Shown here in pieces: positions 36,138-60,413 of a stretch of DNA of 64,000 bases (position 1 is the first letter of the stretch; each line of letters opens with the position of its first letter). Both the position numbers and the translations under genes were made by a program. The notes below the pieces were generated by a model. It did not search any database. It was not told the origin of the DNA and saw nothing but the letters and a program-made list of their open reading frames with translations. The stretch covers positions 307 through 64,306 of IMG/VR virus record IMGVR_UViG_3300042890_003772. One strand, given 5' to 3'. Origin of the DNA: a virus.

Positions 36138-37499
36138 ATGAAAGAGTTATTAGAAAATTGGAGTGAAGTTAAATCAGCACTTTTGACTGGTTTATCTGAA
36201 AATAAACGCAAAATGGTTGCACCATTATTAGAAAACCAAAGAAGCCAAATGATCATGGAATCAGCTTCAACAGGTTCTACAGATGGTTCAGCAATCGCTG
36301 GTTTCCGTAAAATTATGATCCCGATGATTCGTCGTGTGATTCCTAATGCTATCGCAACAGAAATCGTTGGTGTTCAACCAATGACTGGTCCTGTTGGCCA
36401 AGTATATTCAATGCGTTATTTGTACAAAGAAGCTGTTACTAACCCAACAATCAATTCATCTTACGATCCAACAGGCGCTAACGCATCTGCAAGTATCGTA
36501 GCGAATTCAGAAGCATTTGGTAACGTTAACGCTTTACGTCGTTTCTATTCTGGTCAAGTTAACACATCTACAGTTGTTGGTTCAACTGGTACTGACGTAT
36601 TAGCTGGTGCTGCAATTGGCGCAACTGGTGCAACTGGTCAAGGCTGGGGTTCAGCATTAGACGCAGCTTCTGGTCCTAACGCAGGTGGTCATGGTTCTTA
36701 CTTAGAGGGCAATGGCGGCCGTAAAATGGGCTTAGAAATCGTGTCTCAAGCTGTTGAAGCTAAATCACGTAAATTACAAGCTAGCTGGACCATTGAAGCA
36801 ATGCAAGATTTGCAAAACCAACATGGTTTAGATATTGAAAACGAAATGACACAAGCTATGTCTGCTGAAATCGTTCAAGAAATTGACAACGAAATCATCA
36901 CTGACTTGATCTCATTAGCTGGTACAACTGCAGCTTATGATGGTTCAGTTCCTGTTGCAGCTGGCTTCTACAAACCAACATTCGTTGGTGATCGTTTAGC
37001 TAACTTAGGTGTTCAAATTAACGTTGTAGCAAACGAGATTGCACGCAAAACTCGTCGCGCAGCTGGTAATTTCATCGTATGTAGCCCAATGATTGTTTCT
37101 ACATTACAAGCAGCATCTAAATCAGTATTTGCTCCTGCTGTAGAAGGTTCATTCGTAGGTCCAAACAACACTAAATTAGTTGGTACTTTAAATGGTAACA
37201 TTAAAGTTTACAGCTACTTGTGGAACCAATCACAAGCTACTGAAATTTCTGGTACAGGTAACGATGTTATCTTAATCGGTTATAAAGGTGGTAATGGTGA
37301 AACTGATTCAGGTTACTTCTACGCTCCTTATATTCCTTTGATGAGCAGCGGTATTGTTGTTAACCCAACAACTTTCCAACCTGTAATTAGCTTGATGACA
37401 CGTTATGGTAAAGCAACATTTACCGATACAACAACATCGTTGGGCAACACAGCTGACTACTATGGTAAAATTGTTGTTTCTAGCTTAAGCTTGTTATAA
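36138..37499 (+). CDS. gp23: Major capsid protein, T4 gp23 family
   Basis: IPMIRRVIPNAIATEIVGVQPMTGPVGQVYSMRY matches T4 gp23 MGMVRRAIPNLIAFDICGVQPMNSPTGQVFALR. Confidence 0.85.
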   Translation: MKELLENWSEVKSALLTGLSENKRKMVAPLLENQRSQMIMESASTGSTDGSAIAGFRKIMIPMIRRVIPNAIATEIVGVQPMTGPVGQVYSMRYLYKEAVTNPTINSSYDPTGANASASIVANSEAFGNVNALRRFYSGQVNTSTVVGSTGTDVLAGAAIGATGATGQGWGSALDAASGPNAGGHGSYLEGNGGRKMGLEIVSQAVEAKSRKLQASWTIEAMQDLQNQHGLDIENEMTQAMSAEIVQEIDNEIITDLISLAGTTAAYDGSVPVAAGFYKPTFVGDRLANLGVQINVVANEIARKTRRAAGNFIVCSPMIVSTLQAASKSVFAPAVEGSFVGPNNTKLVGTLNGNIKVYSYLWNQSQATEISGTGNDVILIGYKGGNGETDSGYFYAPYIPLMSSGIVVNPTTFQPVISLMTRYGKATFTDTTTSLGNTADYYGKIVVSSLSLL

Positions 37500-39288: not shown

Positions 39289-42200
39289 ATGTTAGCAGAT
39301 GGTTTACAGTTCCTAGAAGGGTCGGTCAATACTAATCTTGTTTTGCCCGCCTTGTCAGAAAGCGGTAGAAATGCATTAGTTAATGTTAATGTTGGTGAAG
39401 TAGTATTTCAGACGACCGGTCAAAAAGGTATTTACGTCTATAATGGTACTAGCTGGCAATATGGGCTATCTATCGCATTAGATAGCACAAATCCAACTAC
39501 ATTATTTGGATATGGAATTACAGATGCAGTTCGTGCAAATGCCGCCATTACCGCAGGTACTGGAACTAAAATCACATATGATAATAAGGGGCTTGTAACA
39601 GGGTCTACTACATTAGACATTAGTGATATTCCAAACCTACCAACCTCTAAATTAACTGGACAAATAACTATAGGTCAATTACCTGACCTAGGATCAACTG
39701 CAAGCACATATGTAAAAGTATATGTTGATGCAACAGGTCGTGTAGTTGGTGGTGAAACTACTGCCACATTAGCTACATTAGGTATTACTGATGCAATTCA
39801 AGCTAATACCGCAATTACAGCCGGTACCGGCACAAAAATAACTTACGATTCAAAAGGTTTAGTAATATCATCTGATGTATTAACCGCGTTAGATATACCA
39901 GATATAGAGACCAGTAAATTACTAGGTAGAATTACACCGGAACAATTACCATTGCTCGGTGATTCTGTTGCTGGGTACAGCAGTGTATCGATAGATGCAA
40001 CTGGTCGTGTGGTTGGAGGTAGTAATCCAACTACATTAGGTGGCTATGGTATTATCGATGCTGTGTTAGCTAATTCACAGATTGTAGGTAGCACAGGCAC
40101 TAAAATTACCTATGATTACAAAGGGTTAGTTACATCATCAACGCAGTTAATTGCGAGTGATATTCCATCGTTAGATGCAAGTAAAATTACCACGGGTAGA
40201 TTTTCAGCTAATTTCTTACCATTTATTGAGACATTAACACCTGGTACGTATACTAAAGTAACTGTTGATAGTACTGGTCGAGTAATTGCATGTGAAACAC
40301 CTACTACTATAGATGAGTATGGTATTACTGATGCAATGCGAGCTAATCCCGCAATTACACCAGGTACTGGTACAAAAATTACATATGATGCGCAAGGGTT
40401 AATCACAGATGCTGCAGTCTTAGCACCAACCGATATTCCAAGCTTACCAGCATCAAAAATTGTATCAGGGGTATTAAGTTCAAGTTTATTGCCAAACTCA
40501 GGTGTAACAGCTGGTGATTACTACAAAGTAACTGCAGATATACATGGTCGTATCACGGCAGGTGCTAGTACATTAGATATATCTGATATTACCGACTTAT
40601 CTACGGTATTAGCAAGTAAAGCTACTCCTGCAAACATCACTGACGCTATTGATGCAGTGTATGGTGGTGTAGGTGTACCTGGAAACACACTTAAAAAGAT
40701 TTACGATATTGCAGTTGCTAGCAACCACGAGATAACAGTCGCTGATACAAATGCAAGAATTGGAACATACGTTTCATCATTACCTACCAACATCTTTGTT
40801 GTTAACGATGGTGACGGTGAATGGGCGTTATATAAAGCGTTAGCAACCGGCCTAGCCACTAACAATAACGTTATAAAATTATCAGATCCTAGTATATTAA
40901 ACACCGCGAATGGTTATATACCTGAAGATCGTACAAATAAAGATACTGATCCAACATTAGCAGCTAATAGTGATATTAAATATCCATCACAAAAAGCAAT
41001 AAAAGCGTATGCCGATACAAAGGTACCTAAAAATGCGTTAATTACAGCTGGTACAGGAGCAAAGCTTACCTACAATCAATTTGGTTTGGTAACCGGAACT
41101 GGTACATTACTAGCTAGTGATATTCCAAACCTGGATGCAAGTAAAATTACATCCGGTATCTTACCAACATCAGTATTACCCACCTCAGGTGCTAACCCAT
41201 CACTATCATACGTAAAAGTAAACGTTGATACATATGGCCGGGTAATATCTGGATCAACAGAGTTAGCAGCAGGTAATATACCGTCATTAGATGCAAGTAA
41301 AATTACATCTGGTAAATTACTAGTTAGTGTAATGCCAAACTTAGGTACACCTGTATCAACGTACACCAAGGTACGTATTGATAGTACTGGTCGTGTGGTA
41401 TCTGGCTCAAATCCAACAGCACTCGCTGATTACGGAATAACAGACGCTGTTACAGCTAACCCAACCATTGCAGCTGGCGCTGGGATTAAGATAAGTTATG
41501 ATAGTAAAGGGTTAGTTACAGGCTCAACATCATTAGTAGCCAACGATATTCCAAACATATCCGCTGCAAAAATTACCTCAGGTGTTTTAAATAGCTCCGT
41601 ATTACCTACATCAGGTATTGCTGAAGGTAATTATAAATCAGTTACCGTAGATTCACATGGTCGAGTAATATCTGGTACAAACACATTAACATTTGATGAT
41701 GTATCTGGATTAACATCTGCGATTACAAACGCAGCATCTAATGCAAGTGTATCAACAGCAATTAATACAGCAATTTCTAACTTACGAGCTGATGTACCTT
41801 CTCAAGGAAGTACATTAAAAGGCTTGTACGACATGGTGCTGGCGAGCAACCATGAGCTTAACGCTGCAACAGTTGTAGCTAGAGATGCATTAGAAATTGT
41901 ATCGTTACCAACTAACGTATTTGTATTAGACGATGGTGACGGGCAATGGGCGTTATATAAAGCATTATATTCAGACTCACAGTTTAACGATTACCTCATT
42001 ACGCATCCAACAGCTGTTGCTAGCGATAGATATGTAAAGGTATCTGATCAAACATCATTGAACGCATCACTGGGTACATCTACTGAGGTTAAAACTAATA
42101 AATCAACAAATATTGAGCTACTTGATGGATTGTCAGCAAGTAACGTTAAATATCCAACACAGCTTGCAGTAAAAACATACGTTGATAACCAAATACAAAC

Positions 42201-45200
42201 AGTTGCAACTGTAGTTGCCGATTCATTAACAGATATTATTACAACATCTGCACTACCAGAAGGTGCTGATTTAGCTCTTAATAAATTAGTATTAGATAAT
42301 GATCCAAGATTATCTGGTAATAGTGCACCGATGTCTCATCAACATCCAATATCAGATATTATTGATTTAGCTACAATACTTGACGGTAAAGTTAACGCAA
42401 TCAGTATACCAGCTGGTAGCGGTCCATATATTACATATAATAATCAAGGTGTTGTAACTGCATCTAGACAACTAACCTCATTAGACCTACCGTTAGTCCC
42501 AGTAAATAAAATTGACGGTGTATTAACATCAAGTCAGTTACCAACTAATACTGTATATACTGATGTTAGCGGTACGATTGCAGTTAGTAAATTACCAAGT
42601 ACTGTTTTGTTATCAACAAACCTACCTGGTGATATAGTAACAACTAGTACTGGTGGTGTAATTGCTCAAGCTAAGTTACCAACTACATTAGTATACGTTG
42701 ATGGAACTGGTAAAATACCTGAAAGCTTAATACCGGCATCGTCTCAAGTATCGTTAATTGATACCATTACAGTTGCCGATTTAATTGAATTAAACGCTAA
42801 CACAACCGCGGTAGTTGGTACAATCGCAATTGTTGTTGATACTAGCGAAACATATGTACAAACAACCAATGGTTGGACCAAATTAAATGTACCGTCAGGA
42901 ACTGTATCATCTATTAATGGTCGCTCAGGTGTAATTAGTAAAATACTACCAGCTGATATCGATGGAGATTTTGTAAACTCTATTAATGGCCGTACTGGTA
43001 TAATCGATAAAATTCATACATCAGATTTAGATGGTAATTTTATTGAATCTATTAATGGTAAATCTGGGGTTATTAGTAAAATTGAACCAGCAGATATTAC
43101 TGGGTTATTTGATGATACATTAGCTACAGTAACATTATTAGCTGGGGTGTTACCAGAATTTACCGGTGATGTGTATTCAGAGATTGGTACAAACGTTTTA
43201 ACTTTAAATGATGTTCCAGGATTAGATACAGAAGTATTCTACTCATCAATTAAAGTTAACAGCAAAGGTATTGTTGTTGAAGGTAGTGAGGTTGGTAACG
43301 GTGGTTCAATAATATCATTTGAACAAACTGATGCACGATACGTACTTAAATCATACTTAGGACTAAAAGATACTGCTGGTGGTGTTGCTGGACTAAACAG
43401 TTCAGGTGTATTACCGCTAACTGTATTGCCAGCATTCACTGGAGACCTTACATCACCAGCTGGTTCAAATGTATTAACATTAAAAACTATTGCTGGTTTA
43501 AACAGTACTAATACATTCTCATCTGTTACTGTAAACCGTAAAGGTTTAGTAACTGGTGGTTCAACTCAAATTGTATATAATAAAGCACAAGCCGACGCAT
43601 TATTCTTATCTATTAATGACGCTGGTGCAAAAAATACAGCTAATGGATATGTCGGATTAAACGCTGATGCGGTGATGTATGCAGCTCAATTACCTGGGTT
43701 TGTTGGTGATGTAACTGCACCAATTGGATCACGTACATTAACATTGAATACTATACCAGGTGTTACACCTGGTGCAAGTTACTCTACTGTTGTTGTAAAT
43801 AGTAAAGGTATTGTAACATCAGGTACATTAGCTTCAACAGCTGCGGGTGATATTGCTGCAACATATGTAACAAAAGTATCATTAGGTAATAGAAACGCAG
43901 CGAACGGATACCTAGGATTAAATTCAAGTGCAAAAATAGACTCACAATACTTACCGTTATTATTCTTAAACAATAGATTTATTGTAAACACAATAGCTGA
44001 ACGTAATGCAATCACAGATGCACATATGGGTGATATTGCTATCGTTAATGGTTCGGTAGGTAAATGTTATATCTTAAATGCAGCAACCTCTGCTAATCCT
44101 GATAATTGGGTAGAATTGGTAACATCTAATAACGTTTACCAAGTAAACGGTAAAGCTGGTCTAGTAGAACTAGTATTAAGTGATATTAATGGTACACTTG
44201 ATATCAGTAAACTACCTATTCGTACTGCTGGTGATGTAATTACCGATCCAACAACGCGTGAATTAAGATTAAAAGATGTTGGTGTTAACGCACTAGCTAG
44301 TGGAGCAACTGCAACATATAAATCGGTAACTGTTAACAGTAAAGGTTTAGTAACGGGTGGATCAAATCCAACTACATTAGCCGGATACGGCATTACTGAC
44401 GCAATTAGTACACGTAGATTACCACTGCACGATGATGGTGAGGCACCATTCTTGACACTAGGTTTCGAAGGTACCATCGACCCAACCATGGTACAGAGTG
44501 ATATATTCACTGTAGACGAATTACCGGTTGATGGAGTAATTAACAAATTATATAGAATAGTTGGCACTAATAAGTCATACGTTTGGGACGGTACTGCATT
44601 TGTACAAATGACTACAACTGATGCAAGCTTGCTAAATGTTGGGACATTACCTGCAGCGAGATTACCAGCATTTACTGGTGATGCAACTGTACCGCTTGGT
44701 ACGAGTGCAATAACCTTAGCTAATACTGGTGTAACAGCTGGAACATACACACAGCTAACTGTTGATACTAAAGGTCGAGTAATATCAGCTACACAAGCAC
44801 CACCACCAGACGCATATACTAGATCACAAGCGGATGCAAAATATGTAACGCAAACATCGTTAGGTCTTAGAAATACCGCAAACGGGTACGTTGGGTTAGA
44901 TAGTAGCAATAAAATTGATTCCAACTTATTGCCATCGATATCAATAAGTGATATTTTCCCGGTAAACACATTAGCTGAACGTGATGCATTAACTACAACA
45001 CATATTGGTGATATGGCAGTTGTAGGTGGTGAGGTTAACGTTAACTATATCTTATCTGGTGTTAATCCTCGTGTGTGGACACCAATGGCTAACCCAATGG
45101 GTGGAGTCGTTGCAGTTAACGGTTCAACTGGATCAATAACATTAACGTTAGATAACATTTCTGGATCACTACAAAACTCCGCACTACCAGCGTTTGTCGG

Positions 45201-48200
45201 GGATATTACATCTGTAGCTGGATCTAATACGCTAACAATTGATAAAATTCGTGGAATAACAGTTGATGCAGATTTTAATGCAACTACATTACCTACAGAT
45301 GGATATTCATTAACGTATATGGCGAGTAGCGGTAAAGCTACTTGGAGACCAACCGGTACAGATGCAACTAACTTAATAACTGGTATTTTACCTGTTGGTA
45401 GATTACCTGCATTAACAGGTGACATCACAACGGTGGTGGGACACAATGTTGCAACAGTTGGTAAATTAAACGGTATTACATTAGATACCGGGTTTACTAC
45501 CGTTACACCACCAACTAATGGTTACGTGTTAACATATGCATCAGTTGGATCAAAAGCTACTTGGAAAGCATTAGATGCAAGTAAAGTTACTGTTGGTACG
45601 TTACCAGTAGCAAGACTACCGGCGTTAACAGGTACAGATGTAACAGCTGATGCTGGAACGGGGGTATTAAAGTTATCAACAACTGGTGTTGCTGCAGGCA
45701 CATATACTTCAGTTACAGTTAACACTAAAGGTCGAGTTACAGCTGGAACGGTAATACCAATCGTAGACGCATATTCAAAACTTGTATCTGATAACAAATA
45801 TGTTGCAAAATCAGTATTAGGTAACAGAAATACTGCTAATGGTTATGTTGGGTTAAATAGTGATAACAAAATGAACGTAGTTCATTTACCCGCTATTACC
45901 ATGAATATTATATTTGCTGTAGCTACATTAGCGCAAAGAGATGCACTAACAACTCAGCATATCGGTGATGTTGCTATTGTTGGTGGTACAGTTAATCGCA
46001 CATACATCTTATCAGCTGTTTCACCTAAAGTTTGGATTGAATTGCTGAACCCATTAGGTGGAGTATTATCACTCAATGGAGCTACAGGTGTTGTAAACTT
46101 AACACTAGATAATATTGAAGGTACATTACACTCAGGTGCATTACCAGCATTTACTGGCGATGTAACGTCAATGGCTGGTGATAATGTACTAGAATTAGCT
46201 GCAACTGGAACAGCTGGTACATACTATAAAGTTACTACTGATGTTAAAGGACGTGTAACATCAGGTGCAACAACACTTGCTGTTAGTGACTTACCAGAGC
46301 TACCATGGAGCAAAGTATCAGTCGATATGCCAACAACCTTGACTGGGTTTGGCATCACTGATGCGATTAATACATCAAGACTGCAAGCTGGTGATAATGG
46401 TGAAGATAAACTAGCTACCGTTGGTAGTAATGGTGCAATTGCTCCTAGTTTACTACCAGCGTTTACTGGTGATGATATTACATCAGCAGTTGGTTCGAGC
46501 GTATTAGCGTTAACCGAAACAGGTGTAACTGCAGGTACTTATACTGCAGTTACAGTAGATGTTAAAGGTCGTGTAACATCCGGCTCGTATGCTCCACCAC
46601 CAGATGCATATACAAAAACGGAAACTGACGGTAAGTATGTACTTAAAACAACTCTAGGTACAAGAAATGCTGCAAATGGCTGGGTTGGGTTAGATAGCAA
46701 TAGTAAAATTAGCGCAAGTTTATTGCCATCACTTGCTATTAACTCAATATATCCAGTTACCACAATAATAGCTCGTGACGCATTAACTACTACACATTTA
46801 GGTGATGTTGCGATTGTTGGTGGATCGGTAAATGTTAACTATATGTTAACATCGGTAACTCCAACAAGAGTATGGACACCAATTTCAAATCCATTAGGTA
46901 GTGTAACTTCCATCAATGGTTCAACAGGTGTAGTTACATTAGACCTATCAAATATAACTGGGACATTACGCCTCGACTCATTGCCAACATTTACTGGTGA
47001 TGTATCGCTATTACCTGAAACAAGCATACTTAAAGTTTTAAGCTTGAATGGTATAGTATTAGATACTACACATAATGAAGCTGTACTGCCAAACAACGGT
47101 AATGTATTAACTTACTCGTCAGCTGATAGTAAAGCTATGTGGCAGTCATTAAGTGCAAATCATATAGCTACAGGTACGTTATCTGCATCTGTAATGCCTG
47201 CATTTAATGGTGATGCCATTTCAACAACAGGTAACGCAAACCTAACAGTTGTTGCTTTAAACGGTATAGCATTAGATCGTGAATTTGATCCTTTCTCGCA
47301 CCCAACTAATAATCATGTACTTTCATATGATACTGCTGGAGTTAAAGCTACATGGAAAGCGTTAAGTGCGAGTAATATATTAACTGGTACATTGCCAGCT
47401 GGTAGATTACCGGAACTTATAGGTGATGTTACTTCAAACGCTGGATCTAATACATTACTATTAACTGATACTGGTGTTGTTGCAGGTACTTACAGTAGTG
47501 TAACCGTAGATACAAAAGGTCGAGTCGTATCAGGTACAGCTGTACCCAACACTGATGCATATTCAAAAATTGTCTCAGATAACAAATATGTTGCAAAAGT
47601 AACATTAGGTGGTCGTAATGAGATTAACGGATTCGTTGGATTAAATAGTGAACGTAAAATTGATGCTGTATATTTACCAGATATCACATTAAACGACATC
47701 GCTGTTGTATCAACCATAGTTGAACGAGATGCACTAACTACTAATCATATCGGTGATATCGCAATAGTTGGTGGTTCTGTTAATAAAACATTTATTTTAT
47801 CATCTACTTCACCACGCACATGGACAGAGTTAGTAAATCCATTAGGCGGAGTAACATCGTTAAATGGTCAAACAGGCAATGTAAATTTAACGTTAAGTAA
47901 TATTAACGGTATATTAGATACATCAGCATTACCAATGTTTACAGGTGATGTTACTTCACTTGAAGGTAGTAACGTATTAACTTTAGCAACTACTGGTGCA
48001 GCCGGTACCTATTATAAAGTAACTACAGATACAAAAGGTAGAGTAACAGCCGGTGTAGCCGCATTAGTTAGCAGTGATATCCCACCACTTAGCTGGAGTA
48101 AGGTTGTATATGGTAGACCGACAACACTAAGTGGCTACGGTATTACCAACGCAATTACTTCTGATAGATTACCGGTAGGTGATGATGGTGTTAGTAAGAT

Positions 48201-49674
48201 AGTAGTATTAGGAAATAACGGTAAGATCGATGAGGCTTTATTGCCATCACTTGCCATATCTGATACATTTACGTTCTTTGACACTGGTGCTACTAAAGAC
48301 AGTATTACAATAGAAGGTAGCCCTGCGCTATATGCGCAACGTGGTGATATTGCTATCGTAGGCGGTATTGTAAATTCTACATACATATTAACAACCAACA
48401 CCCCTGGTAATATAACTGATTGGGTGCAGTTAAGAACTGGATCTGGCGTTACATCTGTTAACGGACAAACTGGTACAGTTGTGTTGGATTACAATGCAAT
48501 TGATAGTGTATCTAGTAGCTTCGTAACACCTGGATCATATAGCAGCGTAACAGTTAACGCACATGGTCGAATTACTGGTGTAAACGGTACACGTTATGCA
48601 GCACTTAATAGTTCTAACGTAATTAGTGGATCTGCAGTACCCGCATTTACTGGTGGTGATGTAATATCGGAAGGTGGAACATTAGTATTATCTTTAGCGG
48701 ATAGTGGTGTTACAGCTGGTACCTACAATATGGTTACAGTTGATGCTAAAGGTCGTATTACTGAGGGTACACTAACTACCGTATTAGATGACACCGGAGT
48801 AACCCCAGGTACATATAAATCAGTAACGGTAGATATTAAAGGTCGAGTAACTGGTGCAACTAACCCAACCACATTAGCTGGCTATGGGATTACCGATGGG
48901 TTTACACCTAATGATGCAACGTGGGACATGTTCTCAACGACAGGTGAAGCTACCACAGTTCCCGGTGGAGAGCCCGTAATTATAGGGGGTGTAAGTAGTG
49001 TTAATGGTAAGATCGGTACAGTTGCATTAGTAAAAGGTGATCTAGGGTTAGGAAATGTAAATAATACTACCGACGCAGCTAAACCAATATCTACCGCAAC
49101 ACAAGCAGCATTAGATACCAAACAAGCGGTGCTAGTAAGTGGTACTAATATTAAAACCATTAACGGTGTATCGATTATTGGAAGTGGTGATGTTACTATT
49201 AGTGGTAGCGGTGAAGTTGGAACTACTACGGGGACTGGAACAACCACCGTATTAAGTATATCACCTGTATTAGTAACACCAGATATTGGAACTCCATCAG
49301 CTGGGAACTTAACAAATTGTACAGTTGATGGTACTAACGGTGTTGGATTTATAAATGTACCACAGCTTAGCAAATCTGTGTCATACACATGCGTATTGTC
49401 AGATGCGGGCAAACACATTTATCACCCAACAAGTGATTTAAATACGCGTACATATACTATTCCATCAAATATGTTAGTACCGTATCCAATTGGTACTGCA
49501 ATACAATTTGTTAATATGTCACCAAACGCAATCAACATCGCAATCGATACTGATACGATGTATCTATCAGGACCTGGAACAACTGGTACACGTATCTTAG
49601 CATTATATGGTACAGCTACTGCACTAAAAGTAACTGATACAACTTGGATTATTTCAGGCACAGGATTAACCTGA
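39289..49674 (+). CDS. Giant tail fibre protein (3461 aa), proximal long-tail-fibre-like, with hierarchical internal repeats
   Basis: About 17 copies of Y-x-x-V-T-V-D-x-x-G-R-V, 7-8 copies of a 90-aa GTGTKITYDxKGLV unit, and 5 super-repeats of about 0.9 kb. The C-terminal 120 aa is shared with the next fibre gene. Confidence 0.7.
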   Translation: MLADGLQFLEGSVNTNLVLPALSESGRNALVNVNVGEVVFQTTGQKGIYVYNGTSWQYGLSIALDSTNPTTLFGYGITDAVRANAAITAGTGTKITYDNKGLVTGSTTLDISDIPNLPTSKLTGQITIGQLPDLGSTASTYVKVYVDATGRVVGGETTATLATLGITDAIQANTAITAGTGTKITYDSKGLVISSDVLTALDIPDIETSKLLGRITPEQLPLLGDSVAGYSSVSIDATGRVVGGSNPTTLGGYGIIDAVLANSQIVGSTGTKITYDYKGLVTSSTQLIASDIPSLDASKITTGRFSANFLPFIETLTPGTYTKVTVDSTGRVIACETPTTIDEYGITDAMRANPAITPGTGTKITYDAQGLITDAAVLAPTDIPSLPASKIVSGVLSSSLLPNSGVTAGDYYKVTADIHGRITAGASTLDISDITDLSTVLASKATPANITDAIDAVYGGVGVPGNTLKKIYDIAVASNHEITVADTNARIGTYVSSLPTNIFVVNDGDGEWALYKALATGLATNNNVIKLSDPSILNTANGYIPEDRTNKDTDPTLAANSDIKYPSQKAIKAYADTKVPKNALITAGTGAKLTYNQFGLVTGTGTLLASDIPNLDASKITSGILPTSVLPTSGANPSLSYVKVNVDTYGRVISGSTELAAGNIPSLDASKITSGKLLVSVMPNLGTPVSTYTKVRIDSTGRVVSGSNPTALADYGITDAVTANPTIAAGAGIKISYDSKGLVTGSTSLVANDIPNISAAKITSGVLNSSVLPTSGIAEGNYKSVTVDSHGRVISGTNTLTFDDVSGLTSAITNAASNASVSTAINTAISNLRADVPSQGSTLKGLYDMVLASNHELNAATVVARDALEIVSLPTNVFVLDDGDGQWALYKALYSDSQFNDYLITHPTAVASDRYVKVSDQTSLNASLGTSTEVKTNKSTNIELLDGLSASNVKYPTQLAVKTYVDNQIQTVATVVADSLTDIITTSALPEGADLALNKLVLDNDPRLSGNSAPMSHQHPISDIIDLATILDGKVNAISIPAGSGPYITYNNQGVVTASRQLTSLDLPLVPVNKIDGVLTSSQLPTNTVYTDVSGTIAVSKLPSTVLLSTNLPGDIVTTSTGGVIAQAKLPTTLVYVDGTGKIPESLIPASSQVSLIDTITVADLIELNANTTAVVGTIAIVVDTSETYVQTTNGWTKLNVPSGTVSSINGRSGVISKILPADIDGDFVNSINGRTGIIDKIHTSDLDGNFIESINGKSGVISKIEPADITGLFDDTLATVTLLAGVLPEFTGDVYSEIGTNVLTLNDVPGLDTEVFYSSIKVNSKGIVVEGSEVGNGGSIISFEQTDARYVLKSYLGLKDTAGGVAGLNSSGVLPLTVLPAFTGDLTSPAGSNVLTLKTIAGLNSTNTFSSVTVNRKGLVTGGSTQIVYNKAQADALFLSINDAGAKNTANGYVGLNADAVMYAAQLPGFVGDVTAPIGSRTLTLNTIPGVTPGASYSTVVVNSKGIVTSGTLASTAAGDIAATYVTKVSLGNRNAANGYLGLNSSAKIDSQYLPLLFLNNRFIVNTIAERNAITDAHMGDIAIVNGSVGKCYILNAATSANPDNWVELVTSNNVYQVNGKAGLVELVLSDINGTLDISKLPIRTAGDVITDPTTRELRLKDVGVNALASGATATYKSVTVNSKGLVTGGSNPTTLAGYGITDAISTRRLPLHDDGEAPFLTLGFEGTIDPTMVQSDIFTVDELPVDGVINKLYRIVGTNKSYVWDGTAFVQMTTTDASLLNVGTLPAARLPAFTGDATVPLGTSAITLANTGVTAGTYTQLTVDTKGRVISATQAPPPDAYTRSQADAKYVTQTSLGLRNTANGYVGLDSSNKIDSNLLPSISISDIFPVNTLAERDALTTTHIGDMAVVGGEVNVNYILSGVNPRVWTPMANPMGGVVAVNGSTGSITLTLDNISGSLQNSALPAFVGDITSVAGSNTLTIDKIRGITVDADFNATTLPTDGYSLTYMASSGKATWRPTGTDATNLITGILPVGRLPALTGDITTVVGHNVATVGKLNGITLDTGFTTVTPPTNGYVLTYASVGSKATWKALDASKVTVGTLPVARLPALTGTDVTADAGTGVLKLSTTGVAAGTYTSVTVNTKGRVTAGTVIPIVDAYSKLVSDNKYVAKSVLGNRNTANGYVGLNSDNKMNVVHLPAITMNIIFAVATLAQRDALTTQHIGDVAIVGGTVNRTYILSAVSPKVWIELLNPLGGVLSLNGATGVVNLTLDNIEGTLHSGALPAFTGDVTSMAGDNVLELAATGTAGTYYKVTTDVKGRVTSGATTLAVSDLPELPWSKVSVDMPTTLTGFGITDAINTSRLQAGDNGEDKLATVGSNGAIAPSLLPAFTGDDITSAVGSSVLALTETGVTAGTYTAVTVDVKGRVTSGSYAPPPDAYTKTETDGKYVLKTTLGTRNAANGWVGLDSNSKISASLLPSLAINSIYPVTTIIARDALTTTHLGDVAIVGGSVNVNYMLTSVTPTRVWTPISNPLGSVTSINGSTGVVTLDLSNITGTLRLDSLPTFTGDVSLLPETSILKVLSLNGIVLDTTHNEAVLPNNGNVLTYSSADSKAMWQSLSANHIATGTLSASVMPAFNGDAISTTGNANLTVVALNGIALDREFDPFSHPTNNHVLSYDTAGVKATWKALSASNILTGTLPAGRLPELIGDVTSNAGSNTLLLTDTGVVAGTYSSVTVDTKGRVVSGTAVPNTDAYSKIVSDNKYVAKVTLGGRNEINGFVGLNSERKIDAVYLPDITLNDIAVVSTIVERDALTTNHIGDIAIVGGSVNKTFILSSTSPRTWTELVNPLGGVTSLNGQTGNVNLTLSNINGILDTSALPMFTGDVTSLEGSNVLTLATTGAAGTYYKVTTDTKGRVTAGVAALVSSDIPPLSWSKVVYGRPTTLSGYGITNAITSDRLPVGDDGVSKIVVLGNNGKIDEALLPSLAISDTFTFFDTGATKDSITIEGSPALYAQRGDIAIVGGIVNSTYILTTNTPGNITDWVQLRTGSGVTSVNGQTGTVVLDYNAIDSVSSSFVTPGSYSSVTVNAHGRITGVNGTRYAALNSSNVISGSAVPAFTGGDVISEGGTLVLSLADSGVTAGTYNMVTVDAKGRITEGTLTTVLDDTGVTPGTYKSVTVDIKGRVTGATNPTTLAGYGITDGFTPNDATWDMFSTTGEATTVPGGEPVIIGGVSSVNGKIGTVALVKGDLGLGNVNNTTDAAKPISTATQAALDTKQAVLVSGTNIKTINGVSIIGSGDVTISGSGEVGTTTGTGTTTVLSISPVLVTPDIGTPSAGNLTNCTVDGTNGVGFINVPQLSKSVSYTCVLSDAGKHIYHPTSDLNTRTYTIPSNMLVPYPIGTAIQFVNMSPNAINIAIDTDTMYLSGPGTTGTRILALYGTATALKVTDTTWIISGTGLT

Positions 49675-49689
49675 TAAGTGATGGGCTCC

Positions 49690-49722
49690 ACAGCTATTAC
49701 TGTGGAGCCCCTTAATTATAGT
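49690..49722 (+). terminator. Stem-loop terminator after the giant fibre gene
   Basis: gggctccacag-ctatta-ctgtggagccc, with a weak T-tract after it. Confidence 0.5.
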
Positions 49723-49832: not shown

Positions 49833-50996
49833 ATGCCAACGATAACTAATAACACAACAGCCAATTACGCGATACCGCTACCAGCAAGCACCAATAGGAT
49901 TGTTGACGATATTCCTAGAATGATTAGTGCATTAACTACTATCGATACATTACTAGCTACTAAAGCTACAGTTGGTGATAATAACGTAGAGTTAGACGTT
50001 AACGGTCACTTATCAATGACTGTGATGCCGGGATTTACAGGAGATGTGGAAGCTGCACCTGGGACATCAATACTAACATTATCGGTAATATCAACACCTG
50101 GAACGTATAAATCTGTTACTGTGGACGCCACTGGTCGTGTGGTAAGCGGCACAAATCCAAACACGATAGATAGTTATGGTATCATAGACGCAGTCAAAAC
50201 AAATACACTGGGTGCTCATGGTGGTGTTGCAACATTAAATATGTATGGAGTATTAACTGCAGATCAATCACCTGCATACACCGGTGGGGAAGTTGTTTCA
50301 TCTGCAGGGTCACTTGAGTTATCGCTACTACCGAGTGGTGTATCAGTAGGTACTTATAATCAAGTAACAGTTGATGCTAAGGGCCGCGTTACAGCAGCTA
50401 CAAACACAGCAGGTCAAGCAAACGGTGTAGCTACATTAAATAGTGGAAGTTTATTATCGACTGCTCAAATGCCTGCGTTTACTGGAGATGTTACATCTAT
50501 CGCTGGTAGCTTAGCATTATCGTTAGCGGACAATGGTGTAGCTGCTGGTACGTATACAACAGTTACTGTTGATAGTAAGGGTCGTGTAACATCAGGTGCA
50601 AATACTGCATATATTCAATCAGGTGGAACTTTAACTAATTGTACAATTGATGGTACAAATCCCGTCGGATATTTAAATATTCCTCAAAATAAAAAAAATG
50701 AAGCATATGTATTAACATTGAGTGATGCAGGTAAACATATATTTCATGAATCAACGGATTTAACAGCTCGTACATATACAATACCAGCTAACAGCTCAGT
50801 ACCGTATCCAATCGGAACCGCATTAGGATTTATCAATATGTCACCAAATGTAGTTAATATTGTAATTAATACTGACACTATGTATCTTGCAGGATCAGGT
50901 TTAACTGGGCCTAGAGTGTTAGCTTTATACGGTACCGCTACTGCAATAAAGATGACAGACACTACGTGGATTATATCTGGTGTAGGGTTAACATAA
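49833..50996 (+). CDS. Tail fibre protein paralog A (387 aa)
   Basis: N-terminal anchor motif NYAIPLPASTNRIVDDIPRMISALTTID. VTVDxxGRV repeats. The C-terminal 120 aa is about 75% identical to the C-terminus of the giant fibre. Confidence 0.65.
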   Translation: MPTITNNTTANYAIPLPASTNRIVDDIPRMISALTTIDTLLATKATVGDNNVELDVNGHLSMTVMPGFTGDVEAAPGTSILTLSVISTPGTYKSVTVDATGRVVSGTNPNTIDSYGIIDAVKTNTLGAHGGVATLNMYGVLTADQSPAYTGGEVVSSAGSLELSLLPSGVSVGTYNQVTVDAKGRVTAATNTAGQANGVATLNSGSLLSTAQMPAFTGDVTSIAGSLALSLADNGVAAGTYTTVTVDSKGRVTSGANTAYIQSGGTLTNCTIDGTNPVGYLNIPQNKKNEAYVLTLSDAGKHIFHESTDLTARTYTIPANSSVPYPIGTALGFINMSPNVVNIVINTDTMYLAGSGLTGPRVLALYGTATAIKMTDTTWIISGVGLT

Positions 50997-51826
50997 TGAG
51001 TGGCTCATTTCAAATGGCAGTAAACAGCTTTACTGTTGCGACAAACGTGGGTCAAGCAATATATATAACTCCAGGTACATATCTGTGGACTGCACCATTA
51101 GGTGTAAGCAGCGTATCAGTAGTAGCCATTGGTGGAGGTGGAGCTGGTGGATACGGCAACTCGTATGGTGGCGGTGGAGCAGGTGGGAACTTACGGTACA
51201 CTAATAATATACCTGTAAGTCCTGGAACTAGCTACACTGTAGTAGTAGGTGCCGGTGGAACAACCACATTAACTAATGGTACTGCAGGTGGTAGTAGCTC
51301 ATTTGGCTTCAGTGTGGTCGCTGCAGGTGGTCGAGGTGGTGGTAGTATTGCAGGTACACCTGTAACTACTGGTAATATTGGTAGTGGTGGTAATGGTGGA
51401 ACCGGTGGTGTTGTAGATGGCGGTGGCGGTGGAGCAGGTGGTTACGCAGGAACTGGTGGTAATGGTGGAAGTAACGCTAGTGTGCAACCTACGGCTGGTA
51501 TAGGCGGCGGTGGGGGTGGCGGTGGATCTGGTAGTGGTGGAGCAGGTGGTGGTGGTGTAGGATTATACGGACAGAGTACAAATGGTGCAGCCGGTGTAAC
51601 TAAAGCCCTACTAATTGATGGTATAGTACAAGGTGGAGGTGGATCAGGTGGATCTGGTGGAGCAACTAAAACCTTTGGTATCGATCAAATAGGTGCAGTT
51701 GGTGGTTTACGAGGTGGTGGAGGTGGTGGTGGATATACAGGAGGTGCAGGTGGAGCTGGCGGTGTACGTATAGTGTGGCCCGGTACTACAAGACAATTCC
51801 CGTCAACATTTACGGTGGATGTTTAA
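50996..51826 (+). CDS. Glycine-rich protein, possibly a gp38-like adhesin
   Basis: TPGTYLWTAPLGVSSVSVVAIGGGGAGG followed by many poly-Gly motifs. Coupled by TAATG to the preceding fibre gene. Confidence 0.5.
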   Translation: MSGSFQMAVNSFTVATNVGQAIYITPGTYLWTAPLGVSSVSVVAIGGGGAGGYGNSYGGGGAGGNLRYTNNIPVSPGTSYTVVVGAGGTTTLTNGTAGGSSSFGFSVVAAGGRGGGSIAGTPVTTGNIGSGGNGGTGGVVDGGGGGAGGYAGTGGNGGSNASVQPTAGIGGGGGGGGSGSGGAGGGGVGLYGQSTNGAAGVTKALLIDGIVQGGGGSGGSGGATKTFGIDQIGAVGGLRGGGGGGGYTGGAGGAGGVRIVWPGTTRQFPSTFTVDV

Positions 51827-51924
51827 CATTATTATCAAGTTTTACACTATCATTCACGTAATTTAAATTAATAATTATACGATAAATAGTACACACAAGT
51901 AAGTTTAATAATACTAAGGTTATC

Positions 51925-53082
51925 ATGACGGTTACTGTAACAAATAATATTACACCTAATTATGCAATAGCATTACCATCCTTATCAAATAGGGTGGTTG
52001 ATGATGTTCCAAGATTAATTAGCGCTGTAAGCACTATTGATACAGTACTATCATTAAAATTAGATGCTAGCACAGTAGGTGCAATTAACGGAGTAGCATC
52101 ATTAGGTGATGATGGTAGACTATCCACCACTCAGCTCCCCGCGTTTATTGGCGATGTTACTTCTACAACAGGTTCAAATACCTTAAATCTATCCACAACC
52201 GGTGTAACTGCAGGTACATATAATTCAGTTACAGTAGACACAAAAGGTCGAGTAACAGCAGGATCCGTATCACCGGTGCTACCGGACCAATCAGGTCAAA
52301 CTGGTAAGTATTTAACCACAAACGGTGTAGACGCATCATGGAATAACGTTACAAGCGGTGTAATTCCAACTATCATACAGTATTCAAATTATACTGCAGC
52401 TGCAAATGATCTAGTTCGGTGTAACACTGCAACCGGTGCATTCAATATAATTTTTCCACTGAATCCAGTGGATGGTACAATAATTGGAGTTGTAGATGTA
52501 GGTAATACATTTGGTATTAATCATTTAACTATAGTACCGGTAGGAGGTACAATTGAAAATGATTCATCATATATATTAGATATTAATGGCACATATGCAT
52601 CATTTATATATAATACATATAATACTAATTGGCGTATATTAGAAACACCTATTGAGTTTAGCGTTAGTACAGTGCCAACTTGGAACCAAAACACTACAGG
52701 TACTGCTGCAGGGTTAAGTGTAACATTAGCAGTAGATAGTGGCGGTACAGGTGTAAAAACAATACCTACAGGTAGTGTGTTACTAGGAAATGGAGCATCC
52801 GCAGTTCAAACAGTAGCACCAGGTGCAAGTGGTAATGTATTAGTGAGTAACGGTGCAACTTGGACCAGTGGGGCAGCTCCATCATCTATACCTACACAGA
52901 CAGGTAATGATGGTAAATTTTTAACTACTGATGGTACGGTACCATCTTGGCAATCGGTGGCGGGTACACCAACATTGGCAACATTTTATTGGAATGCAGA
53001 CGAACTTATGGTAAATCATTTTGATCCATTATTAGTACCATCAATCGTAGATGGTGAATTTATTTTGGTGTATAACGGATGA
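51925..53082 (+). CDS. Tail fibre protein paralog B (385 aa)
   Basis: N-terminal NYAIALPSLSNRVVDDVPRLISAVSTID. GKYLTTNG..SW motifs and a C-proximal LVRCNT...DINGTYASFIY..NWRIL module. CGATAAATA at 51881. Confidence 0.6.
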   Translation: MTVTVTNNITPNYAIALPSLSNRVVDDVPRLISAVSTIDTVLSLKLDASTVGAINGVASLGDDGRLSTTQLPAFIGDVTSTTGSNTLNLSTTGVTAGTYNSVTVDTKGRVTAGSVSPVLPDQSGQTGKYLTTNGVDASWNNVTSGVIPTIIQYSNYTAAANDLVRCNTATGAFNIIFPLNPVDGTIIGVVDVGNTFGINHLTIVPVGGTIENDSSYILDINGTYASFIYNTYNTNWRILETPIEFSVSTVPTWNQNTTGTAAGLSVTLAVDSGGTGVKTIPTGSVLLGNGASAVQTVAPGASGNVLVSNGATWTSGAAPSSIPTQTGNDGKFLTTDGTVPSWQSVAGTPTLATFYWNADELMVNHFDPLLVPSIVDGEFILVYNG

Positions 53083-53579
53083 CAATAACAAATTTAGGGC
53101 GAATAGGTTTCGTAATACAAGGTACCTTTGTGCAAGGTACTACGTATAAACGATTAGATGTAGTTAGATACGGTAATGCTACATATACTTGCAATGTAAC
53201 TACAACTACACAAACACCTGGGGTTGGAACTGATTGGCAGCTGTACGCCTTAGATGGTGGTACAGGTGTAACACCGATAAGGATGAACTTTTACGGTAAT
53301 TTATTTGTACAAACTGGACAGGTGAGATGGTATCCTCAAAATTCTTGCAGTATAAACCAAGTATTCGCTACATTAGGTGTTTCAATTACAAGTAGCATAA
53401 TTGCAGTTATACGAAAGAATGAAACACAGATACTAACCGTGACAATTCCCGCCAATACTTATAAGTCAACTATTCAGACCGGGCTTACAATACCTATGAC
53501 TACTAGTGATTACTTAACAGTTGATATTACACAAGCTTCTGGCGGAAGCAATTTAACTATAACTATAGGATACACCTAA
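53079..53579 (+). CDS. Hypothetical fibre-associated protein
   Basis: 166 aa, coupled by ATGA. Confidence 0.45.
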   Translation: MTITNLGRIGFVIQGTFVQGTTYKRLDVVRYGNATYTCNVTTTTQTPGVGTDWQLYALDGGTGVTPIRMNFYGNLFVQTGQVRWYPQNSCSINQVFATLGVSITSSIIAVIRKNETQILTVTIPANTYKSTIQTGLTIPMTTSDYLTVDITQASGGSNLTITIGYT

Positions 53580-55597: not shown

Positions 55598-55782
55598 TAA
55601 CTATTACAAAATTAGCAACAGTAATGGTAGGTGCAAAAAGTATGAAACCTGCAATGTCAGGAAATACCAACAACACACCATTTAAGGTATTCACCATATT
55701 TAAAGCTGCATACAGTAATATTACAGGTAAAGGTGCAGGCACAAAAGCACCTGGCCAATTATTGCAGCGGTTTTGGAGTTAA
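55594..55782 (+). CDS. Small protein, paralog 1 with a duplicated N-terminus
   Basis: Shares an identical 61-nt, 20-aa start (MITITKLATVMVGAKSMKPA) with the next gene. Confidence 0.4.
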   Translation: MITITKLATVMVGAKSMKPAMSGNTNNTPFKVFTIFKAAYSNITGKGAGTKAPGQLLQRFWS

Positions 55783-55783
55783 T

Positions 55784-56427: not shown

Positions 56428-56439
56428 GGTATATAGTTA

Positions 56440-57849: not shown

Positions 57850-57872
57850 GCTCAACAATGATGTAGTTATTC

Positions 57873-57880
57873 GATAAATA
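57873..57880 (+). promoter_or_regulatory. Late-promoter-like CGATAAATA
   Basis: Lies 29 nt upstream of ATG 57909. Confidence 0.4.
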
Positions 57881-60412: not shown

Positions 60413-60413
60413 C

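What the first reader, a model, noticed from the sequence alone, without database searches (positions are those of the whole stretch)
39289..49674. 3461-aa fibre with three nested levels of internal repetition
Level 1: about 17 copies of Y-x-x-V-T-V-D-x-K-G-R-V-T-x-G. Level 2: a 90-aa unit, AITAGTGTKITYD.KGLVT...DIP.L..SKI, repeated 7-8 times from about 39.5 to 41.7 kb. Level 3: a super-repeat of roughly 0.83-0.98 kb (five copies, about 43.6-48.4 kb). Each super-repeat contains RN.ANGYVGL.S..KID...LP, then ERDALTT.HIGD.AIVGG.VN..YIL, then NPLGGV.S.NG.TG.V.L.L.NI.G.L....LP.FTGDV, then the VTVD.KGRV unit. The length and regularity suggest a very long segmented fibre whose length could change by recombination between super-repeats.
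Basis: seen in the sequence. Interest (0 to 1): 0.55.

Follow-up and report, generated by a model that had tools for sequence, protein, structure and literature searches.

The report
Giant modular phage tail fibre
This gene encodes a 3461-residue fibre protein of an uncultivated giant phage, built from a small set of repeated modules; related phages carry the same fibre in versions from about 500 to 5700 residues, so it is a large but otherwise ordinary tail fibre that grew by duplicating blocks.

Summary
Window 39289-49674 (+) is one 3461-aa ORF. The Y-x-x-V-T-V-D-x-K-G-R-V motif occurs 20 times, against 0.007 in shuffles. There are 7-8 copies of a ~90-aa unit and five super-repeats of 279-326 aa (pairwise BLASTP E 1e-13 to 1e-112). 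The levels are only partly nested, and there are further ones: type A and B super-repeats alternate as a 598-aa (1.79-kb) double unit, and a 23-aa unit occurs three times.

It is most likely a homotrimeric tail fibre of a jumbo phage with a T4-type capsid. It matches phrog_7389 (tail fiber) at E 1e-85, and fibre genes lie downstream. The E module models as a small knob resembling collagen XV/XVIII trimerization domains. The C-terminal β-domain resembles phage fibre and tailspike domains.

Proteins sharing its N-terminus are 504, 689, about 2230, 2822, 3236 and 5730 aa long. The ~2230-aa versions lack one 1250-aa block, whose two ends lie in a shared motif. A tree of the repeats gives ((SR2,SR4),(SR3,SR5)), the pattern of a tandem duplication. 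So length has changed in super-repeat units over evolutionary time. However, the copies are only about 60% identical in DNA, with exact matches of at most 21 nt, so rapid switching is unlikely.

Verdict: new member of a known kind, moderate interest.

The parts
39289..49674 (+). Complete fibre gene, 3461 codons plus stop. A Shine-Dalgarno-like AGAGGA lies 8 nt upstream of the ATG.
   Evidence: The identical protein is found on other contigs.
39289..39483 (+). N-terminal adaptor, aa 1-65 (MLADGLQFLEGS..GEVVFQTTGQKGIYVYNGTSW). It is conserved among fibres of very different length. Presumed virion-attachment end (inferred).
   Evidence: 41-76% identity in the 9-sequence N-terminus alignment, 90% to P0284 over aa 1-100; lengths and sources. 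hhalign against the E module is weak (E 1e-3, probability 22%).
39484..40578 (+). First G-K-V array: four tandem ~90-aa units, aa 66-430.
40645..41028 (+). H insert, copy 1, aa 453-580 (LKKIYD..LPTNIFVVNDGDGEWALYKA..KYPSQKAIKAYAD).
   Evidence: (D18, D19). Copy 1 versus copy 2: 45% aa identity.
41029..41688 (+). Second G-K-V array, aa 581-800 (K K V G K V).
41770..42288 (+). H insert, copy 2, aa 828-1000.
42289..43143 (+). Mixed linker region, aa 1001-1285. It holds an HxH motif (MSHQHP), one degenerate K module, one E module (aa 1158) and three 23-aa INGxxG repeats (nt 42909-43097).
   Evidence: (D17). The relative P0284 has one 23-aa unit where this protein has three. Pfam Collagen_trimer hit at aa ~1174-1200, E 0.015, below cut-off.
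43144..43848 (+). F-V-R array, aa 1286-1520, period about 90 aa.
43849..44826 (+). Super-repeat 1 (R-E-N-V-G + F-V), aa 1521-1846. This copy is orthologous to the single full copy in the ~2230-aa relatives.
44827..45783 (+). Super-repeat 2, type A (R-E-N-F-F-F-V), aa 1847-2165.
45784..46620 (+). Super-repeat 3, type B (R-E-N-F-V-G-F-V), aa 2166-2444. Residues 2160-2345 were modelled.
46621..47571 (+). Super-repeat 4, type A, aa 2445-2761.
47572..48186 (+). Super-repeat 5, type B, truncated (R-E-N-F-V-G), aa 2762-2966.
44437..48186 (+). Block of about 1250 aa (aa ~1717-2966) that is absent from the ~2230-aa relatives L008, L009 and P0290. It is bounded on both sides by the motif PTTLxGYGITxAI..RLPxxDDG.
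48343..48918 (+). Partial unit E-N-V followed by F-V-V-G, aa 3019-3210. It is colinear with the distal shaft of L008 and L009.
48961..49296 (+). Distal linker, aa 3225-3336 (SVNGKIGTV.., GLGNVNNTTDAAKPIS.., TINGVSIIGSGDV.., SPVLVTPDIGTPSAGNLTNC). Low-confidence part of the model.
   Evidence: (phrog_5207, 8780, 16348)
49297..49671 (+). C-terminal tip cassette, aa 3337-3461. The last ~105 aa form a confident β-domain.
49683..49710 (+). 11-bp GC-rich hairpin 9 nt after the stop codon (terminator-like, but the T-run is weak).
49833..50996 (+). Next gene, a 387-aa short fibre (modules F-V-G-V-F-V). It carries the same tip domain (nt 50619-50993, 68.8% aa identity to the giant fibre's tip).
   Evidence: D6

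Best explanation
The gene encodes a very long, probably homotrimeric receptor-seeking tail fibre of an uncultivated jumbo myovirus with a T4-type capsid.

The fibre is a concatenation of about eight short module types. The extended shaft modules are F (LPAFTGDV..), V (YxxVTVDxKGRV), G (PTTLxGYGITDA), K (GTGTKITYDxKGLV) and N (NPLGGVxSxNGxTG). They are interrupted at regular intervals by small compact knobs: E (ERDALTTxHIGDxAIVGG..YIL..W) and the larger H insert.

Inferred working model:
- The conserved N-terminal ~65 aa fix the fibre to the virion.
- The knobs act as local trimerization and registration points along the shaft.
- The exchangeable C-terminal β-domain is the distal tip.

Fibre length is set simply by how many modules the gene contains. 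It has changed in evolution by in-frame gain or loss of whole blocks. The clearest case is a tandem duplication of a 598-aa (1.79-kb) A-B double super-repeat. Together with its flanks this accounts for about 1250 aa that the ~2230-aa relatives lack. Smaller changes include the 23-aa unit (3 copies here, 1 in the closest relative) and gain or loss of the tip cassette.

Using published rise values for related β-structured fibres (0.38 Å/aa from Bd2133, PMC10769870; about 0.54 Å/aa for T4 gp34, from memory), the fibre would be roughly 130-190 nm long, and the extra block would contribute roughly 50-70 nm.

Shown: the repeats, the module grammar, the length series among relatives, the block junctions, the duplication topology, the low DNA identity of the copies, and the fold similarities of two modelled domains.
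Inferred: the trimeric state, attachment to the tail, the role of the knobs, the physical length, and the recombination mechanism.
For: Phage and fibre context:
- The major capsid protein at 36138..37499 matches phrog_138 and Pfam Gp23. Its nearest relatives are the jumbo phages XacN1, CM1, RAS14 and Xoo-sp13 at about 61% identity.
- Downstream, 49833..63789 holds about ten fibre-like genes, with hits to phrog_7389, phrog_972, phrog_863 and Pfam Mtd_N.
- The fibre itself matches phrog_7389 'tail fiber protein' at E 1.3e-85, phrog_5181 at 1.7e-111, and minor tail or tail protein families.
- The 5730-aa relative P0282 is followed by an Mtd_N protein, a Laminin_G_3 protein and a Phage_tail_APC chaperone.

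Modules:
- The same modules recur in different orders in 400-1000-aa proteins that their sources name 'phage-related tail fiber protein', and in Bdellovibrio fibre proteins.
- A profile of the R-E-N unit finds 12389 cluster representatives at E<=1e-3.

Structure:
- AF2 model of aa 2160-2345: mean pLDDT 80.8, with the E module at pLDDT about 84-93.

Length evolution:
- Lengths of proteins with the same N-terminus: 504, 689, 2225-2234, 2822, 3236, 3461 and 5730 aa.
- L008 and L009 are colinear with aa 1-1698, then jump to aa 2950. The junction lies in a shared motif.
- Neighbour-joining tree of the repeat cores: SR1 is orthologous across four phages. SR2-5 form ((SR2,SR4),(SR3,SR5)), and each copy pairs with its P0284 counterpart.
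- Copies within a protein are more alike (54% and 48%) than copies between proteins (43%).

Precedent: phage EfV12-phi1 gained varying numbers of 1.8-kb in-frame tandem duplications in a 6.6-kb tail-fibre gene during coevolution with its host (PMC6365445).
Against: - There is no direct evidence that the protein is in the virion, that it is trimeric, or that it sits on the tail rather than on the head or neck.
- The gene lies only 1.8 kb downstream of the capsid gene, and the baseplate hub gene is about 25 kb away on the other strand.
- No Pfam family reaches threshold on the protein. The only sequence match to a solved structure is marginal: monocin FtbO, E 0.04.
- The tip's best structural neighbours include domains that dock other proteins (the N-terminal part of CBA120 TSP4, a gp9-type baseplate protein). 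It may therefore not be a receptor binder.
- The direction of the 1250-aa difference (gain here or loss in relatives) rests on an unbootstrapped neighbour-joining tree of about 135 residues.
Confidence: 0.72

Rival explanations
1. It is a virion fibre but not a tail fibre: a head or neck fibre, whisker or sheath 'hair', as seen on some jumbo phages. It would serve for reversible first contact or for keeping particles apart, rather than for triggering the baseplate.
For: - The gene follows the capsid gene after three small ORFs. This order is kept in L001, L010, L011 and L015.
- The baseplate hub gene is far away on the other strand.
Against: - In L008 the orthologue is not next to a capsid gene. 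It sits behind homologues of the window's fibre genes 51925, 53079 and 53579.
- The best family matches are tail fibre and tail protein families.
- The P0282 cluster contains a tail-fibre assembly chaperone.
- Gene order in jumbo phages is a weak guide to where a protein sits in the virion.
Confidence: 0.15
2. It is the trunk of a branched fibre complex. The giant protein would be a scaffold, and its C-terminal domain and periodic knobs would dock the shorter fibre proteins encoded downstream, as in the branched tailspike complexes of CBA120-like and RaK2-like phages.
For: - About ten further fibre-like genes follow.
- The tip is unusually conserved, 63-72% identical across more than 1800 proteins. 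That degree of conservation fits a protein-protein interface.
Against: - The same domain sits at the extreme C-terminus of many small (170-410 aa) proteins on 1-65-kb contigs, and of the neighbouring 387-aa fibre. This is the position expected of a distal tip.
- The closest orthologue, P0284, lacks the domain altogether.
- No interaction data exist.
Confidence: 0.15
3. The repeats are an active length-switching device. Frequent homologous recombination between super-repeats in present-day populations would produce fibres of different length (the strong form of the first reader's idea).
For: Length differences fall in whole-block units among relatives. There is experimental precedent in EfV12-phi1.
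Against: - Copies share at most 21 nt of exact identity and 58-62% nt identity.
- Identical codons at identical residues are 50-60%, against 46% expected at saturation.
- Tandem Repeats Finder finds no array.
- The exact 3461-aa sequence recurs on several contigs.
- P0284, 62% identical, keeps the same five super-repeats.
Confidence: 0.07
4. It is an assembly artefact: repeats wrongly joined or expanded by a metagenome assembler.
For: Short-read contigs from three runs stop just upstream of the gene (L003, L005) or within the 128-aa ORF before it (L004).
Against: - The identical protein occurs on at least 3 contig blocks of 20-200 kb.
- The orthologue P0284 has the same architecture at 62% identity.
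- The repeats are too diverged (about 60% nt) to confuse an assembler.
- The reading frame is open for 10.4 kb.
Confidence: 0.02

Closest known systems
Long tail fibres of T4-like and jumbo myoviruses (T4 gp34/gp37 type; 'long tail fiber proximal subunit' of Klebsiella phage KP1, PDB 9f4a)
   Same: - Long β-structured fibre built from short repeated motifs, encoded by a phage with a T4-type capsid.
- An HxH motif is present, as in gp37 (sequence observation; the gp37 comparison is from memory).
- Neighbouring genes hit phrog_972 'tail fiber protein proximal subunit'.
   Different: - No detectable sequence homology between the fibre itself and gp34 or gp37 families.
- It is a single 3461-aa chain instead of a four-protein fibre.
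- The module set is different (R-E-N super-repeat), and the protein is about 2.7 times as long as gp34.
Mosaic adhesive trimer (MAT) fibres of Bdellovibrio bacteriovorus (PMC10769870)
   Same: - Shared shaft modules. Bdellovibrio and Pseudobdellovibrionaceae proteins are hit at E 1.6e-30 to 3e-11 and contain K, F, V and G modules.
- Same design: a trimeric β-prism shaft with interchangeable tip domains, with or without an S74 chaperone.
- The relatives L008 and L009 end in an S74-chaperone-like sequence by motif (seen, not scanned with Pfam), whereas this fibre does not. This mirrors the S74 / non-S74 split of MATs.
   Different: - MATs are bacterial proteins of about 600-1100 aa; this is phage-encoded and 3461 aa.
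- The R-E-N super-repeat is not detected in the Bdellovibrio hits examined (P0008, P0025, P0037).
Small Mtd_N / 'hyaluronate lyase N-terminal domain' prophage fibre proteins (PF18454-containing, 250-340 aa)
   Different: - They have one copy against 5-7 here.
- PF18454 itself is not detected in this protein, though it is in the neighbouring gene 58715..60412.
- No sign of a diversity-generating retroelement partner repeat in the window.
Tail fibre of Enterococcus phage EfV12-phi1, with experimentally evolved 1.8-kb tandem duplications (PMC6365445)
   Same: An in-frame tandem duplication of about 1.8 kb inside a long tail-fibre gene lengthens the shaft upstream of the tip. The A-B double unit here is 1.79 kb.
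   Different: There the duplications are recent, identical and variable in number within populations. Here the copies are old (53% aa, 60% nt identity) and fixed. No sequence relationship was tested.
Monocin side-fibre rod protein FtbO (PDB 9j1l; PMC11830787)
   Same: It is the only solved structure with any sequence match, to the N module GVTSxNGxTGxV. FtbO is a trimeric rod that coordinates iron through His pairs. The fibre has one HxH motif.
   Different: The match is marginal (E 0.04, 13.7 bits). FtbO is 146-159 aa.

Membership tests
Phage tail fibre proteins (general) | Encoded in a phage genome within or next to the virion/tail-fibre gene cluster | tested here: met
   Capsid gene upstream. 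About ten fibre-like genes downstream. Relatives' clusters include a Phage_tail_APC chaperone.
Phage tail fibre proteins (general) | Sequence homology to families annotated as tail fibre | tested here: met
   phrog_7389 'tail fiber protein' E 1.3e-85; phrog_8780 and phrog_26941 (tail). Homologues are named 'phage-related tail fiber protein' by JGI.
Phage tail fibre proteins (general) | Homotrimeric, elongated β-structure | not testable with these tools
Phage tail fibre proteins (general) | Conserved virion-proximal end and variable distal end | tested here: met
   The N-terminal ~60 aa are 41-76% identical across the aligned orthologues and 90% identical to P0284 over aa 1-100. The C-termini differ: a β-domain here, an S74-chaperone-like end in L008/L009, none in P0284, another type in L013.
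Phage tail fibre proteins (general) | Physical presence on the tail or baseplate | not testable with these tools
   Needs virion proteomics or EM.
T4 gp34/gp37 long tail fibre family | Sequence homology to gp34, gp36 or gp37 | tested here: not met
   No Pfam hit and no PHROG hit to these families for this protein. phrog_972 hits only the neighbouring genes.
Bdellovibrio MAT superfamily | Bacterial surface fibre with a β-prism shaft and mosaic tip, with or without an S74 chaperone | tested here: inconclusive
   Shaft modules are shared. But the protein is phage-encoded, has no Peptidase_S74, and its R-E-N unit is not found in the Bdellovibrio hits examined. It works like a MAT but is not filed as one.
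Mtd_N (PF18454) fibre N-terminal domain | Match to PF18454 above the gathering score | tested here: not met
   No hit on the whole protein or on aa 1-90 at E<=1. hhalign of the N-terminus against the E module is weak (E 1e-3, probability 22%).
Collagen XV/XVIII-type trimerization domain (PF20010) | Fold and sequence match to the multiplexin trimerization domain | tested here: inconclusive
Diversity-generating retroelement target (Mtd-like) | A near-identical template repeat elsewhere, plus a reverse transcriptase | tested here: not met
   No near-identical (>85%) partner of at least 60 nt for any part of the gene in the 64-kb window. No reverse transcriptase among the ORFs scanned. The rest of the genome was not seen.

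The most novel reading that the evidence does not exclude
The fibre may be a length-tunable 'ruler' whose periodic E knobs are autonomous trimerization nodes. These would let a shaft of almost any length (504 to 5730 aa in this family) fold in register without a C-terminal chaperone. In addition, the phage may deliberately display the same tip domain at two very different reaches: on the 387-aa fibre and on the 3461-aa fibre encoded side by side. That would amount to a two-range search for one receptor, for example through a thick capsule, sheath or S-layer.
Probability: 0.2. Interest if true: 0.6.

Novelty: new member of a known kind. Interest (0 to 1): 0.38.

Why it matters
- It gives a clean natural series showing how phage fibres change length. 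The same adaptor and module vocabulary span a tenfold length range, and one 1.79-kb double unit was caught as a fixed tandem duplication. That is the same kind of event seen in real time in an Enterococcus phage experiment.
- The module grammar, and the collagen-like trimerization knob if confirmed, could be useful for engineering fibres of chosen length.
- The R-E-N unit has over 12000 cluster representatives. Only a weak PF26696 (PTL_trimer) hit is on record for these giant fibres, in a Pfam release newer than the copy searched here, so these modules look poorly covered and merit family definitions.
- None of this changes the general picture of tail fibres.

Tried and rejected
- megablast of the gene against 50,697 phage records: no match.
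- tblastn of the distal half: only short motif-level hits.
- Pfam on the whole protein and on ten fragments: nothing above threshold.
- Sequence search of the PDB: only a marginal FtbO hit.
- Full-length search of the 5.8-billion-protein set: timed out.
- Self-BLAST of the whole protein returns only the identity hit, so the dot-plot had to be made from 120-aa chunks.
- Metagenome scan with the N-terminus: only one extra, distant locus.
- Synteny with XacN1: no giant fibre after its capsid gene.
- hhalign of the N-terminal adaptor against the E module: weak, left open.
- Literature searches for giant repeated fibres in jumbo phages and for PTL_trimer found nothing specific.
- Assembly artefact: considered and rejected.
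- Diversity-generating retroelement target: considered and rejected.
- Not used: the third fold search.
Full report
**1. The observation**

Window 39289..49674 (+) is a single ATG-initiated ORF of 3461 codons.

Level 1. The motif, written as [YF]xx[VLI]x[VIAT][DN]xxG[RLI][VI], occurs 20 times. In 1000 shuffles of the protein the mean is 0.007.

Level 2. The ~90-aa unit is a triplet of modules that I call G (PTTLxGYGITDA), K (GTGTKITYDxKGLV..DIPxLxxSKI) and V (YxxVxVDxxGRV). Four units are tandem at aa 66-430. About 2.5 more lie at aa 581-800, and a degenerate K module at aa 1039. Pairwise identities are 43-63%, E 1e-12 to 1e-35.

Level 3. Five super-repeats are anchored by RNxANGY at aa 1535, 1861, 2180, 2459 and 2776, that is 978, 957, 837 and 951 nt apart. 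Pairwise E-values run from 4e-13 to 8e-112. A chunked self dot-plot is densely periodic.

Four corrections apply:
- The levels are only partly nested. V is a component of both larger units, but these lie in different thirds of the protein.
- The super-repeats alternate between type A (SR2, SR4: R-E-N-F-F-F-V) and type B (SR3, SR5: R-E-N-F-V-G-F-V). They form a 598-aa double unit whose two copies are 53% identical.
- There are further repeats: 3 x 23 aa, an F-V-R array, and two copies of a 130-170-aa insert H.
- At the DNA level the repeats are weak. Tandem Repeats Finder reports nothing relevant. Codon-aligned identity is 58-62%, and the longest exact match between super-repeats is 21 nt.

**2. 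It is not an artefact**

The identical 3461-aa protein is on record on at least three contig blocks, including a JGI/NCBI sample. A 62.6%-identical, colinear orthologue (P0284, 3236 aa) has the same module order and the same gene neighbourhood.

**3. Context**

The window belongs to a phage with a T4-type major capsid protein (36138..37499; phrog_138, Pfam Gp23). Its nearest isolates are the jumbo phages XacN1, CM1, RAS14 and Xoo-sp13, at about 61% identity. There is no nucleotide-level match to any of 50,697 phage records.

Downstream of the fibre, 49833..63789 holds about ten genes with tail-fibre family hits. Several contain the same F-V modules. The baseplate hub gene is about 25 kb away on the other strand. 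XacN1 has no giant gene at the corresponding place.

**4. What the protein is made of**

I built HMMs of eight modules from the protein's own copies. With them the protein reads:

adaptor - (GKV)x4 - H - KKV - GKV - H - K E N - FV FV R V - [RENVG FV] - [RENFFFV] - [RENFVGFV] - [RENFFFV] - [RENFVG] - ENV R FV V G - linker - tip.

The same modules occur in other orders in 400-1000-aa proteins that their sources call phage-related tail fibre proteins, and in Bdellovibrio fibre proteins. The Bdellovibrio proteins belong to the published 'mosaic adhesive trimer' class of intertwined trimeric β-prisms with interchangeable tips (PMC10769870).

A profile of the R-E-N-F-V unit finds 1121 proteins at E<=1e-8 in the indexed search. 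Most are 250-340-aa proteins carrying Mtd_N. In the exhaustive search it finds 12389 cluster representatives at E<=1e-3. PHROGs gives phrog_5181 (E 1.7e-111) and phrog_7389 'tail fiber protein' (E 1.3e-85). Pfam gives nothing above threshold.

**5. Structure**

A sub-threshold Pfam Collagen_trimer hit on another E copy agrees with this. I therefore read E as a local trimerization node. That is an inference from fold similarity, not a demonstration.

This tip is a mobile cassette:
- 1866 proteins match it, the best at 63-72% identity, nearly all 170-410 aa long.
- It is absent from P0284.
- A 68.8%-identical copy ends the neighbouring 387-aa fibre gene (nt 50619-50993).

**6. Length variation among relatives**

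Searching with the N-terminal 83 aa, and then with the R-E-N profile, gave proteins with the same adaptor (41-76% identity in the nine-sequence alignment, 90% to P0284). Their lengths are:
- 504 aa (L014);
- 689 aa (L012);
- 2225-2234 aa (P0290, L008, L009);
- 2822 aa (L013, which is the same place as L001, with eight R-E-N units);
- 3236 aa (P0284);
- 5730 aa (P0282, 46 matched stretches).

L008 and L009 are colinear with aa 1-1698 of the window protein and then continue at aa 2950. The window protein therefore carries about 1250 aa (nt ~44437-48186) that they lack. The left flank of the junction matches aa ~1660-1716 and the right flank aa ~2966-3035. The crossover lies inside the motif PTTLxGYGITxAI..RLPxxDDG, which occurs at aa 1691-1716, 2345-2370 and 2941-2966.

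A neighbour-joining tree of 33 R-E-N cores gives three results (no bootstrap):
- SR1 of the window protein, P0284, L008 and L009 fall in one orthologous clade.
- SR2-SR5 fall in a separate clade with the topology ((SR2,SR4),(SR3,SR5)).
- Each of these copies pairs with its P0284 counterpart.

This is the signature of a tandem duplication of an A-B pair before the two phages split.

Compared with P0284, the window protein has two extra 23-aa units (3 against 1), one extra 49-aa stretch, and the tip. Length has thus changed at every level of the repeat hierarchy, always in frame and at module boundaries.

An experimental precedent exists. Phage EfV12-phi1 acquired variable numbers of 1.8-kb in-frame tandem duplications in its 6.6-kb tail-fibre gene while coevolving with its host (PMC6365445).

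**7. How fast**

The copies are old. Identity is 53% in protein and 60% in DNA. Identical codons at identical residues are 50-60%, against 46% expected at saturation, and exact matches are at most 21 nt. P0284 has kept the same five units despite 38% sequence divergence. So the repeats are a record of past block duplications, not good substrates for frequent homologous recombination today.

**8. Most likely function and mechanism**

It is a homotrimeric tail fibre. It would be held to the virion by the conserved N-terminal adaptor. The shaft is a chain of β-structured modules, kept in register by periodic trimerization knobs, and it ends in an exchangeable tip.

Published and remembered rise values are 0.38 Å/aa for Bd2133 and about 0.54 Å/aa for T4 gp34 (from memory). 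They put the length at about 130-190 nm, with the extra block contributing about 50-70 nm.

The adjacent short fibre with the same tip suggests that one specificity is presented at two reaches. This is speculative.

Rivals:
- A head, neck or sheath fibre. The gene is near the capsid gene, and there are capsid-spike and head-fibre structural neighbours. However, in L008 the gene sits among fibre genes.
- The trunk of a branched fibre complex whose tip docks other fibres. This rests on the TSP4-like fold.
- An active length switch. This is unlikely, see section 7.

**9. Novelty**

It is a large, well-organised example of a known kind of protein. Even longer relatives exist in public data: 5730 aa in a related phage, and 3-5.6-kaa proteins with signal-peptide-like N-termini that reuse the R and N modules, a few also E. 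The size is therefore not unique.

Three things are mildly new:
- the explicit module grammar;
- the collagen-like knob repeated along the shaft;
- a clean comparative demonstration of length change by block duplication.

Interest is moderate.

Noticed in passing
window 11513..14599 (-): A 1028-aa protein combines a Phage_base_V (gp5/VgrG-type OB) domain near the N-terminus with three MgtE_N repeats (E 3e-34) and a FliG_C-like stretch near the C-terminus. This is an unusual fusion for a baseplate hub or spike protein.
   Followed up: no
window 34037..34702 (+): A 221-aa SIR2-family protein (E 3.5e-39) lies about 1.4 kb upstream of the capsid gene, with two ORFs between. It is conserved at the same place in related contigs.
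   Followed up: partly
window 61315..62622 (+), inside gene 60740..62701: About 18 tandem copies of a 72-nt (24-aa) unit at 62-84% DNA identity, in a DUF285 (BspA-type repeat) protein of the fibre cluster. This is a much more regular DNA repeat array than anything in the giant fibre.
   Followed up: no
window 55594..55654 and 55784..55844: A perfect 61-nt direct repeat, 190 nt apart. It starts at the stop codon of gene 53579..55597 and recurs inside ORF 55733..56179. Unexplained.
   Followed up: no
window 21766..21889: A perfect tandem duplication of a 62-nt AT-rich segment, straddling the 5' end of the minus-strand ORF 21149..21784 and the intergenic space before 21941..23116. Possibly a duplicated promoter region.
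   Followed up: no
window 49833..60412: In the closest related phage (L015) the giant fibre is followed at once by homologues of window genes 60414..60740 and 60740..62701. So about 10.6 kb of additional fibre genes appear to be inserted here.
   Followed up: partly
L016 4389..5903 and 6001..23193: A related phage encodes two adjacent fibres with the same N-terminal adaptor, 504 aa and 5730 aa long. They are followed by an Mtd_N protein, a Laminin_G_3 protein and a Phage_tail_APC chaperone.
   Followed up: partly
window ~42436..42453 (fibre aa ~1050-1055); L001 fibre, many copies: An HxH motif (MSHQHP) sits inside a GNDxRLxxxxxPxxHxH-type element. It recalls the iron-binding His pairs of monocin FtbO and of T4 gp37 (from memory). 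There is one copy here and several in the L001/L013 fibre.
   Followed up: no
proteins P0287, P0291, P0298, P0297, P0310 (not in the window): Proteins of 3-5.6 kaa with signal-peptide-like N-termini reuse the R and N modules (some also E) in long regular arrays such as (R-N-N)n. The modules are therefore shared with proteins that do not look phage-encoded.
   Followed up: no
window 20801..21050: A highly acidic repeat (DEMSDED-type, 21-33-nt period) inside ORF 20701..21096.
   Followed up: no
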